A stretch of DNA of 64,000 nucleotides from a virus (taxonomy: Duplodnaviria > Caudoviricetes): the IMG/VR virus record IMGVR_UViG_3300036797_000054, positions 32,001-96,000 of that record; one strand, 5' to 3'. The translations under genes and the position numbers were made by a program. The notes below the pieces were generated by a model. The model made no database searches. It saw only the letters and a list, made by a program, of their open reading frames with translations, and was not told where the DNA came from. This document shows positions 55,868-56,017 of this stretch, piece after piece. Within the stretch, counting starts at the first letter, position 1. Each line of letters starts with the position of its first letter.

Positions 55868-55936
55868 ATGGCGTTGATCGTTCGCCAGCGGACGTGGGGA
55901 TGGTCGCGGACGTGGGAATGGTCGCGCCAGGCGTAG
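55868..55936 (+). CDS. Trp-rich 22-aa leaderless mini-ORF (MALIVRQRTWGWSRTWEWSRQA)
   Basis: TAGCCT-N7-ATG context identical over 16 nt to that of ORF 36738; in-frame 18-nt tandem repeat. Confidence 0.45.
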   Translation: MALIVRQRTWGWSRTWEWSRQA

Positions 55937-56017
55937 CCGCCGGAGGTCGCCCGTTCAAGCCGGGCCGCGCGAGCACATCGCGCGTAGCTCAGTTGGTAGA
56001 GCACCGGCGGCTGCGCC
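55930..56017 (+). ncRNA. circularly permuted tRNA mimic (YrlA/Y-RNA topology)
   Basis: order T-arm (55949-65), loop-closed acceptor stem (55966-84), D-arm (55987-56002), enclosed by 14-bp helix. Confidence 0.8.

What the first reader, a model, noticed from the sequence alone, without database searches (positions are those of the whole stretch)
55930..56017. Circularly permuted tRNA mimic with Y-RNA (YrlA) topology but no visible Ro60 partner or motif
Seen: AGGUC, then T-arm GCCCG-UUCAAGC-CGGGC, acceptor stem CGCGCGA-gcaca-UCGCGCG closed by a 5-nt loop, UA, then D-arm GCUC-AGUUGGUA-GAGC. All are enclosed by a 14-bp helix GGCGUAGCCGCCGG/CCGGCGGCUGCGCC that replaces the anticodon arm. Flanks can extend the helix (about 55870-55891 with 56034-56052), giving a ~185-nt RNA whose 3' end competes with the acceptor strand of the next tRNA. 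Established: bacterial and some phage YrlA RNAs have this T-acceptor-D order and bind Ro60/Rsr. Here I see no GNCGAA-type Ro-binding helix and no TROVE gene in the window, so the partner may be different (inference).
Basis: partly seen in the sequence, partly recalled or inferred. Interest (0 to 1): 0.82.

Follow-up and report, generated by a model that had tools for sequence, protein, structure and literature searches.

The report
Orphan phage Y-RNA-like tRNA mimic
A soil phage carries a gene for a small RNA shaped like a tRNA written in rotated order, the known Y-RNA-like "YrlA" design. Unlike most known examples it has no Ro60-type partner gene and none of the usual partner-binding motifs, so it is an unusual variant of a known kind rather than something new.

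Summary
Window 55930-56017 folds exactly as described (-58.4 kcal/mol, z -6.6). Rfam YrlA matches at full length with 41.2 bits. That is below the gathering score of 69, but Ro60-linked phage YrlA RNAs score only 34-43 bits.

The 122.7-kb phage contig (about 80% complete) shows no Ro60, by Pfam TROVE, DUF2828, DUF7788 and vWA_Ro60, or by my own more sensitive Ro60 profile.

The same T-acceptor-D module recurs in many phages. Six of 17 module-bearing phage records encode a Ro60-like protein, and three of seven near-complete ones do not. Of 24 bacterial genomes with the module, 20 have TROVE.

This copy lacks the GNCGAA and ACAGCAA handles and the V arm. It has only a one-substitution variant, GGCGUAG. 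Its stem is an almost perfect 22-bp helix.

The likely host class (Thermoleophilia, a weak inference) rarely has Ro60: 4 of 251 genomes.

The gene heads a cluster of two deformed tRNAs and a PTH2 hydrolase, and the phage also encodes RtcB.

Best reading: a Ro60-independent tRNA "top-half" decoy or scaffold (about 0.4). Main rival: a Y RNA using a Ro60 supplied in trans (about 0.3).

This scan has found similar mimics in many other phages, usually beside Ro60-like genes.

The parts
55855..55860 (+). -10-like hexamer TAGCCT, 7 nt before the ATG at 55868. Candidate promoter for the RNA cluster.
   Evidence: Same hexamer and spacing as one of this phage's recurrent leaderless promoters (contig 54470). 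The upstream WTAG element is not at its usual 11-nt spacing. The sigma-70 consensus scan found nothing. Candidate only.
55868..55936 (+). 22-codon mini-ORF (MALIVRQRTWGWSRTWEWSRQA*). Its stop codon lies inside the 5' strand of the 14-bp helix. It may simply be the 5' leader of the RNA.
   Evidence: Translation. No relatives are available to test conservation.
55888..55923 (+). Tandem 18-nt direct repeat (GCGGACGTGGGRATGGTC, two copies), which places AUGGUCGCG twice just 5' of the stem.
   Evidence: ATGGTCGCG occurs only 3 times in the contig.
55919..55929 (+). Lower stem, 5' strand (UGG, bulged U55922, CGCGC, bulged C55928-A55929).
   Evidence: Fold.
55930..55943 (+). 5' strand of the 14-bp helix that takes the place of the anticodon arm. 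It begins with GGCGUAG, a one-substitution variant of GNCGAAG.
55944..55948 (+). Variable loop AGGUC (C48 can pair with G15). There is no V arm.
55949..55965 (+). T arm: GCCCG, UUCAAGC, CGGGC.
   Evidence: The T stem covaries across the class.
55966..55984 (+). Acceptor stem closed into a 7-bp hairpin (CGCGCGA, loop GCACA, UCGCGCG). Predicted RNase P site between 55977 and 55978.
   Evidence: The RNase P and CCA steps are by analogy with M. smegmatis YrlA (PMC4201824) and are inferred, not shown.
55985..56003 (+). U8 A9, D arm (GCUC, AGUUGGUA, GAGC), A26.
56004..56025 (+). 3' strand of the 14-bp helix (56004-56017) and of the lower stem (56018-56025).
56048..56136 (+). Second gene of the cluster: a tRNA-like RNA with a 24-nt anticodon loop and an aberrant T loop.
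   Evidence: Rfam tRNA 41.6 bits. ARAGORN rejects it.
56185..56280 (+). Third gene: a tRNA with anticodon UUC and a 25-nt insertion in the D loop.
   Evidence: Rfam tRNA 61.9 bits. ARAGORN rejects it.
56274..56332 (+). 20-nt-arm hairpin between the last tRNA-like gene and the PTH2 start codon.
   Evidence: Inverted repeat I3.
56333..56713 (+). PTH2-type peptidyl-tRNA hydrolase gene (126 aa).
   Evidence: Pfam PF01981, 7e-6, above the cut-off. Homologues at 46-70% identity carry the same domain.

Best explanation
This is a real gene for a Y-RNA-like (YrlA-class) tRNA mimic, carried by an uncultured soil phage of at least 123 kb. It most likely works without Ro60.

Shown:
- The RNA folds into the 'top half' of a tRNA. 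The T and D arms keep every nucleotide needed for the elbow, and the 7-bp acceptor stem is closed by a 5-nt loop.
- This domain is mounted on a rigid, almost perfect 22-bp GC helix where the anticodon arm would be.
- It is the first of three tandem tRNA-shaped genes that all keep the acceptor/T-arm half and all have a disabled anticodon or D region. A PTH2 peptidyl-tRNA hydrolase gene follows.
- The phage also encodes an RtcB RNA ligase.

Inferred:
- The cluster is transcribed as one precursor.
- RNase P cutting at the next tRNA-like gene, possibly with RNase III on the long helix, releases an RNA of about 105-130 nt.
- Host tRNA enzymes treat it as a tRNA. RNase P could nick the acceptor loop between 55977 and 55978 and a CCA end could be added, as in M. 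smegmatis YrlA.
- It then acts as a decoy or scaffold for a protein that recognises the acceptor/elbow half of tRNA. That protein could be a host tRNA-targeting defence enzyme or an RNA-decay enzyme such as PNPase. The RNA would act alongside the phage's tRNA repair (RtcB) and rescue (PTH2) genes.

Identity as a YrlA-type mimic: about 0.8. The Ro60-independent mechanism: about 0.4.
For: - Fold and statistics.
- Full-length YrlA match at 41.2 bits, E 5e-9 for the contig.
- A single such module in the contig.
- Class alignment of 36 modules: T stem and acceptor hairpin 99-100% paired with many double changes. The two innermost closing-helix pairs were not used for selection and are paired in 34/36 and 32/36, with 22 and 6 double changes.
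- No Ro60 of any known type in 122.7 kb: Pfam TROVE at E<=10, own Ro60 profile with all filters off (best E 0.028), profile A3, DUF2828, DUF7788 and vWA_Ro60.
- No ORF of Ro60 size within 4 kb.
- Phage genomes with the module but no Ro60-like gene exist: G003, G005 and G007 (96-100% complete) and the cultured Arthrobacter phage Racecar.
- No strict GNCGAA, no ACAGCAA handle within about 500 nt, and no V arm.
- Likely host class: terminase-domain relatives in 6 of 301 genomes of the class of a Solirubrobacterales MAG, against 0 of 301 in the Streptomyces class. The nearest named PTH2 and RtcB homologues are from Miltoncostaea and Solirubrobacterales.
- Full Ro60-like genes in only 4 of 251 genomes of that class.
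- tRNA-handling neighbours: PTH2 and RtcB.
Against: - No transcript, binding or processing data exist, and no RNA run holds the stretch.
- No close relatives could be fetched, so the 22-bp helix and the gene itself are untested by conservation.
- In bacteria the module is tightly tied to Ro60 (20 of 24 genomes), and 6 of 17 phage records have their own Ro60-like gene. The prior for a Ro60 partner is therefore substantial.
- The contig is only about 80% complete.
- The host assignment is weak.
- GGCGUAG at 55930-55936, next to two 5'-strand bulges, could be a Ro60 site.
- RtcB and PTH2 were found in none of the 17 other module-bearing phage records. The proposed functional link with them is therefore specific to this phage and unproven.
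Confidence: 0.42

Rival explanations
1. It is an ordinary Y RNA of the YrlA type that works with Ro60. The partner is supplied in trans, either by the host or by a gene in the unassembled ~20% of the phage genome. The RNA would gate Ro60 or tether it to an exoribonuclease such as PNPase, as in D. radiodurans, Salmonella and Thermus phage phiLo.
For: - Full-length YrlA match in the same score range as Ro60-linked phage YrlAs.
- In bacteria the module goes with TROVE in 20 of 24 genomes, and a Ro60-like ORF lies in the same 8-kb locus in at least 14 loci.
- G005, a 100%-complete phage with a perfect GUCGAAUG motif and the best YrlA score (57.7 bits), also lacks its own Ro60. Phages relying on a host Ro60 are therefore plausible.
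- GGCGUAG at 55930-55936 is the 7-mer found in the Ro60-linked RNAs of L119 (phage) and L204 (Brevundimonas).
- The stem has two 5'-strand bulges.
- Ro60, Y RNAs and RtcB share an operon in Salmonella (PMC4201824, PMC7790460), and this phage has RtcB.
Against: - No Ro60-type gene in 122.7 kb by five models.
- Ro60-like genes in only 4 of 251 genomes of the likely host class.
- No strict GNCGAA, ACAGCAA handle, or V arm with YUAY.
- GGCG[UC]AG is expected by chance in 3.8% of 65-nt windows of this genome.
- The motif sits in a fully paired helix rather than in the large internal loop typical of Y RNAs.
Confidence: 0.32
2. It is a non-functional by-product of tandem tRNA gene duplication and deletion. 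The segment from the anticodon stem of one copy to the anticodon stem of the next gives the T-acceptor-D order automatically.
For: - It lies in a row of tandem tRNA-like genes that share GTAGCTCAG and CGGAGGTCGC blocks.
- No relatives were found, so there is no evidence of conservation.
- Sub-threshold YrlA matches can be plain tandem tRNAs.
Against: - All 30 tRNA-domain base pairs and all tertiary-contact nucleotides are intact.
- The spacer is a tight 5-nt loop with no CCA or trailer.
- The helix extends from the tRNA's 5 bp to 22 bp through sequences complementary to each other, which decay would not produce.
- The same design is maintained with covariation in many phages and bacteria.
Confidence: 0.1
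3. It is mainly a cis-acting processing or regulatory structure for the downstream tRNA-like genes and PTH2. The long helix would be an RNase III site. Alternatively, translation of the Trp-rich mini-ORF, which ends inside the 5' strand, would control whether the structure forms.
For: - The mini-ORF 55868-55936 has four Trp codons and its stop lies inside the helix.
- There is a -10-like hexamer 7 nt upstream, as in this phage's leaderless promoters.
- A 22-bp helix is long enough for RNase III (established knowledge).
Against: - A processing stem does not need a complete tRNA elbow and a 7-bp acceptor stem.
- The mini-ORF is generated by an in-frame 18-nt repeat and has no comparative support.
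- The promoter lacks its upstream element at the usual spacing.
Confidence: 0.08
4. It is a circularly permuted gene for a working translation RNA. That would be either a two-piece tmRNA or a permuted tRNA whose halves are joined by the phage RtcB.
For: - Two-piece tmRNA genes also run T arm, acceptor 3' strand, excised loop, acceptor 5' strand, with a long helix in place of the anticodon arm (own knowledge).
- PTH2 and RtcB fit a ribosome-rescue or ligation theme.
Against: - ARAGORN, which detects permuted tmRNAs, finds nothing.
- No tmRNA family matches at E<=10.
- The acceptor has G3:C70, not the G3:U70 needed for alanine charging.
- A full D arm is present, unlike in tmRNA.
- There is no anticodon loop, bulge-helix-bulge motif or credible tag reading frame.
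Confidence: 0.02

Closest known systems
YrlA (Y RNA-like A; Rfam RF02553; Chen et al. 2014, PMC4201824; structure in Wang et al. 2018, 10.1101/312249), especially M. smegmatis YrlA
   Same: T arm, closed acceptor stem and D arm in that order, enclosed by a stem formed by the 5' and 3' ends. The conserved T- and D-loop nucleotides and the G15:C48 pair are present. The acceptor stem is 7 bp as in M. smegmatis YrlA, the one shown to be cut by RNase P and given a CCA end. The covariance model aligns at full length.
   Different: No Ro60 gene within 4 kb or anywhere in the contig. No strict GNCGAAN0-1G, no V arm or YUAY, and a score below the gathering threshold. The stem is a nearly perfect 22-bp GC helix instead of a helix broken by large internal loops.
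Phage Y-like RNAs beside Ro60-like proteins: mycobacteriophage YrlA (PMC4201824), Thermus phage phiLo Yrl1/Yrl2 with phiRo60 (PMC12135203), and the DUF2828/DUF7788-linked RNAs with an ACAGCAA handle seen here in L079, L093 and L148
   Same: Phage-encoded, often in or next to tRNA clusters, with the same permuted tRNA-like core.
   Different: Those have a Ro60-like gene within a few kb and a recognisable handle (CGAA or ACAGCAA). This one has neither.
Module-bearing phages without a Ro60-like gene, found here: IMG/VR records G003, G005 and G007, and Arthrobacter phage Racecar (MN234206.2, unannotated gap between genes 145 and 146)
   Same: A permuted tRNA mimic in a (near-)complete phage genome with no Ro60-like gene.
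   Different: G005 keeps a perfect GUCGAAUG motif. Racecar has two tandem modules with interrupted stems. None of them has PTH2 or RtcB.
Two-piece (circularly permuted) tmRNA genes
   Same: Gene order T arm, acceptor 3' strand, loop, acceptor 5' strand, with a long helix in the anticodon-arm position.
   Different: No G3:U70, no tag frame, a complete D arm, and no ARAGORN or Rfam tmRNA match.

Membership tests
YrlA (RF02553) | tRNA-like domain in the order T arm, closed 'acceptor' stem-loop, D arm, with conserved T- and D-loop nucleotides | tested here: met
   It aligns column for column with 35 other modules.
YrlA (RF02553) | 5' and 3' ends pair to form a long closing stem | tested here: met
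   14 bp plus 8 bp with two bulges. The stem is unusually regular.
YrlA (RF02553) | GNCGAAN0-1G motif near the 5' end (proposed Rsr contact; PMC4201824) | tested here: not met
   No match in 55700-56400. Only the variant GGCGUAG at 55930-55936 is present. Caveat: the strict motif was present in only 4 of 33 Ro60-linked modules sampled.
YrlA (RF02553) | Encoded within about 4 kb of a Ro60/TROVE gene, on the same strand | tested here: not met
   No Ro60-type gene in 122.7 kb. The contig is about 80% complete.
YrlA (RF02553) | Reaches Rfam's gathering score (69 bits) | tested here: not met
   41.2 bits. Ro60-linked phage examples also fail at 34-43 bits. Tandem tRNAs can reach 34-40 bits, so the score alone decides nothing.
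YrlA (RF02553) | V stem-loop beginning with YUAY, upstream of the T arm (present in many members, not all) | tested here: not met
   Only a 5-nt variable loop, AGGUC. Ro60-linked members show CUACUUCG-like sequences at this position.
YrlA (RF02553) | Bound by Rsr/Ro60 in vivo; modified and processed by tRNA enzymes | not testable with these tools
   No RNA run holds the stretch. The 7-bp acceptor stem makes RNase P cleavage plausible, by analogy with PMC4201824.
DUF2828/DUF7788-linked phage Y-like RNAs | ACAGCAA-type handle and an adjacent DUF2828/DUF7788 ring-protein gene | tested here: not met
   No ACAGCAA (up to 1 mismatch) between 55461 and 56704. PF11443 and PF25043 are absent at E<=1.
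Two-piece tmRNA | G3:U70 alanine identity, a tag reading frame, and a D loop without a stem | tested here: not met
   G3:C70 and a full D arm. No match from ARAGORN or the Rfam tmRNA models.
Permuted tRNA gene (Cyanidioschyzon type) | The halves rejoin to give an anticodon loop; processing motif at the junction | tested here: not met
   The position of the anticodon loop is a continuous helix, with no loop sequence and no bulge-helix-bulge motif.

The most novel reading that the evidence does not exclude
The three deformed tRNA-shaped RNAs form one anti-defence module together with PTH2 and the distant RtcB. This mimic has no anticodon, the next has a swollen anticodon loop, and the third has a swollen D loop. 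In this reading the Y-RNA-like mimic, nicked by RNase P and given a CCA end, soaks up a host immune enzyme that attacks the acceptor/elbow half of tRNAs. It would do so with no Ro60 involved. That would make it a Ro60-independent branch of the Y-RNA design.
Probability: 0.25. Interest if true: 0.7.

Novelty: new variant of a known kind. Interest (0 to 1): 0.42.

Why it matters
Y RNAs are defined by their partnership with Ro60. A well-preserved YrlA-type mimic without that partnership would suggest the tRNA-like half has a job of its own. Here the phage lacks Ro60, the likely host lineage rarely has it, and the usual handle is missing.

The gene sits among tRNA repair and rescue genes (PTH2, RtcB) and two other disabled tRNAs. 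That makes a concrete, testable case for tRNA-shaped decoys in phage counter-defence.

Two practical points also came out of the work:
- Rfam's YrlA threshold misses essentially all the phage members I sampled, while sub-threshold hits include plain tandem tRNAs. A check that the acceptor is a closed hairpin is needed.
- Pfam TROVE misses the DUF2828/DUF7788 Ro60-like proteins of phages. 'No TROVE' is therefore weak evidence unless those models are searched too.

Tried and rejected
The contigs of the 26 PTH2 homologues, which are the best route to relatives, could not be fetched.
- No close relatives turned up in GenBank phages, IMG/VR or genome contigs.
- Two metagenome relatives of PTH2 were found. 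L035 is cut 80 nt upstream of the gene. L036 has three tRNA-like genes upstream but no YrlA-like one.
- No RNA holder was listed among the sequencing runs. The only holder is the probable source sample.
- The consensus promoter and terminator scans found nothing.
- My first tally, 'only 2 of 16 module-bearing phages have TROVE', was wrong. Pfam TROVE misses divergent phage Ro60. The corrected tally with profile A3 is 6 of 17.
- YrlA matches of 34-40 bits in 9 Thermoleophilia genomes were tandem tRNA genes, not orphan Y RNAs.
- There is no general link between the module and PTH2 or RtcB. Neither was found in the 17 other module-bearing phage records. Only one module (L027) occurred in 28 distant PTH2 loci.
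- The tmRNA and permuted-tRNA readings were rejected.
- The neighbouring ORFs give no RNA-binding lead. The upstream one is a small ATLF-type metallopeptidase-like protein and the downstream one is unknown.
- Four large unannotated ORFs have no Pfam or PHROG match. The two on the minus strand lack the coding GC3 pattern.

Full report
**What is there**

The window is bases 32001-96000 of a 122,744-base IMG/VR phage contig. It is linear, about 80% complete by CheckV, and 67% G+C.

- a 14-bp helix, 55930-55943 with 56004-56017
- the variable loop AGGUC
- a T arm at 55949-65
- a 7-bp acceptor stem closed by the loop GCACA, at 55966-84
- U8 A9
- a D arm at 55987-56002
- A26

The minimum-energy fold is this structure: -58.4 kcal/mol, z -6.6, none of 200 shuffles as stable. 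Every nucleotide that builds the tRNA elbow is present: U8, A14, G15/C48, G18 G19, G53-C61, U54 U55 C56, A58.

The helix goes on for 8 more pairs, 55919-27 with 56018-25. U55922 and C55928-A55929 are bulged on the 5' strand. A strict scan for this architecture finds one copy on both strands of the whole contig.

**Family match**

Rfam's YrlA model aligns at full length with 41.2 bits. E is 1.3e-7 for the region and 5e-9 for the contig. The gathering score is 69.

The threshold is not informative in either direction:
- Phage YrlA-type RNAs that sit next to a Ro60-like gene score 34-43 bits.
- Ordinary tandem tRNA genes in Thermoleophilia genomes reach 34-40 bits.

What separates the real ones is the closed acceptor hairpin with no CCA or spacer. 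This element has it.

**The class**

An exact-pattern scan picked up such modules in IMG/VR phage contigs and in bacterial genomes.

An alignment of 36 modules, including this one, shows the T stem and the acceptor hairpin fully paired with many double changes. These two helices were used for selection, so that result is partly by construction. The two innermost pairs of the closing helix were not used for selection. They are paired in 34/36 and 32/36 sequences, with 22 and 6 double changes.

**The Ro60 question**

Pfam TROVE finds nothing in the contig, even at E<=10. TROVE proved insensitive for phages, so I built a Ro60 profile from ORFs next to modules. These were 31 ORFs after three rounds, and they include phage proteins that Pfam calls DUF2828 plus DUF7788. 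With all filters off, its best hit in the phage is E 0.028 over 70 residues. The tool version of the profile (A3) finds nothing. PF11443, PF25043 and PF25045 also find nothing.

No ORF of Ro60 size lies within 4 kb. The large ORFs elsewhere are accounted for or show no coding signature.

For comparison:
- A3 finds a Ro60-like gene in 6 of 17 other module-bearing phage records, and in 4 of the 7 that are at least 90% complete.
- G003, G005 and G007 lack one. So does the cultured Arthrobacter phage Racecar, which has two unannotated modules beside its tRNA cluster.
- In bacteria, 20 of 24 module-bearing genomes have TROVE. The gene lies in the same 8-kb locus in at least 14 loci.

So phage copies without a Ro60-like gene are not rare, but the RNA design is normally a Ro60 companion.

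**Handles**

Chen et al. (PMC4201824) give GNCGAAN0-1G as the likely Rsr contact. It is absent from 55700-56400. In my sample the strict motif occurs in only 4 of 33 Ro60-linked modules, against a 5-7% background. Many of those carry looser forms such as GGCG[UC]AG, GUGCAG, GCGAAGG or ACAGCAA.

This RNA starts its 14-bp helix with GGCGUAG, the 7-mer seen in the Ro60-linked RNAs of L119 and L204. GGCG[UC]AG is found in 12% of Ro60-linked upstream regions and in 3.8% of random windows of this genome. That is only about a threefold hint.

The ACAGCAA handle is absent. There is no V arm. The helix continues the tRNA anticodon stem without a break, which is unlike the interrupted stems of the other members.

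**Host**

No host is known. Three weak pointers agree on Thermoleophilia:
- Terminase-domain relatives at 28-40% identity occur in 6 of 301 genomes of the class that holds a Solirubrobacterales MAG. None occurs in 301 genomes of the Streptomyces class. That second sample included three unpublished genomes, G365, G377 and G604, which contributed only irrelevant N-terminal matches. The 'none' therefore partly rests on them.
- The nearest named PTH2 homologue is from Miltoncostaea oceani.
- The nearest named RtcB homologue is from a Solirubrobacterales MAG.

In that class, full Ro60-like genes were found in 4 of 251 genomes (1 of 201 by Pfam TROVE). One genuine Ro60-adjacent YrlA was found in 151 genomes.

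**Context**

The RNA is followed by:
- a tRNA-like gene with a 24-nt anticodon loop, at 56048-56136
- a tRNA(UUC) with a 25-nt D-loop insert, at 56185-56280
- a hairpin
- a PTH2-type peptidyl-tRNA hydrolase gene, at 56333-56713

All three RNAs keep the acceptor/T-arm half intact. An RtcB ligase gene lies at contig 117077-118393, outside the window.

A -10-like TAGCCT at 55855-60 stands 7 nt before an ATG, as in this phage's leaderless promoters, but the upstream element is misplaced. That ATG opens a 22-codon Trp-rich frame created by an 18-nt tandem repeat. The frame ends inside the helix.

**Reading**

Identity as a YrlA-class tRNA mimic is well supported, at about 0.8. For mechanism I favour a Ro60-independent decoy or scaffold that presents the tRNA top half on a rigid helix (0.42).

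Rivals:
- a Y RNA that uses a Ro60 supplied in trans (0.32)
- a duplication relic (0.10)
- a processing or attenuator structure (0.08)
- a permuted tmRNA or tRNA (0.02)

Nothing about transcription, processing or binding is shown. The RNase P and CCA step is by analogy with M. smegmatis YrlA, the member that also has a 7-bp acceptor stem (PMC4201824). The PNPase option is by analogy with phiLo Yrl RNAs, which bind host PNPase in gel-shift assays (PMC12135203).

**Novelty**

The kind is known. YrlA RNAs were reported in 254 bacteria and 22 phages, all chosen because they encode TROVE (PMC4201824). Notes from this scan describe many phage permuted tRNA mimics, mostly beside Ro60-like DUF2828 genes.

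This copy differs in having no Ro60-type gene, no recognised handle, an uninterrupted helix, and a place in a cluster of disabled tRNAs with PTH2. I file it as a new variant of a known kind, of moderate interest.

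Noticed in passing
contig 117077-118393 (outside the window; L039:1077-2393, + strand): The phage encodes an RtcB RNA ligase (Pfam 1e-62; homologues at 58-63% identity). RtcB shares an operon with Ro60 and the Y RNAs in Salmonella. No Ro60-like gene lies next to it in the part of the contig that is held.
   Followed up: partly
window 56084-56104: The 24-nt anticodon loop of the second tRNA-like gene holds two CGAA motifs (CUCCGAAGG and CGCGAAAGG). 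The first resembles the GGUCCGAAGG of animal Y RNAs. These are the only CGAA sites in 55700-56400.
   Followed up: no
window 55868-55936: A Trp-rich 22-codon mini-ORF made by an in-frame 18-nt tandem repeat. Its stop codon lies inside the 5' strand of the mimic's helix, and a -10-like TAGCCT lies 7 nt upstream.
   Followed up: partly
L297 about 2990-3262 (Arthrobacter phage Racecar, MN234206.2, about 99,100-99,375): Two unannotated permuted tRNA-like modules lie in the 410-nt gap between genes 145 and 146, beside the tRNA cluster. One matches YrlA at 32.9 bits. The complete 194-kb genome has no Ro60-like gene by TROVE or by profile A3.
   Followed up: partly
L079, L093, L148 (IMG/VR loci): The Ro60-like proteins next to phage tRNA mimics are Pfam DUF2828 plus DUF7788. 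The TROVE model misses them. A TROVE-only search undercounted Ro60-linked phages, 2 against 6 of 16-17 records.
   Followed up: yes
L290-L296 (Thermoleophilia genomes): Rfam YrlA matches of 34-40 bits, E 1e-6 to 1e-7, turned out to be ordinary tandem tRNA genes. The model bridges the T arm of one gene and the D arm of the next.
   Followed up: yes
L037:7362-10259 (contig 7362-10259): The 965-aa large terminase carries an extra N-terminal region (about residues 127-470). This region matches long cellular proteins in about 20% of actinobacterial genomes sampled. It could be an inserted or fused domain of unknown kind.
   Followed up: no
L036 1934-2932 (WBZU01001121.1): Upstream of a PTH2 homologue (50% identity) lie three odd tRNA-like genes. 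One has an 8-nt anticodon loop and a long extra arm. tRNA look-alikes travel with this PTH2 family, but no YrlA-type member is present there.
   Followed up: partly
window 55339-55836: The gene just upstream of the RNA cluster is a small (165 aa) ATLF-family metallopeptidase-like protein. The evidence is a weak Pfam hit at 0.0049 plus language-model neighbours at 0.96. This type is common in phages and Bacillota.
   Followed up: partly
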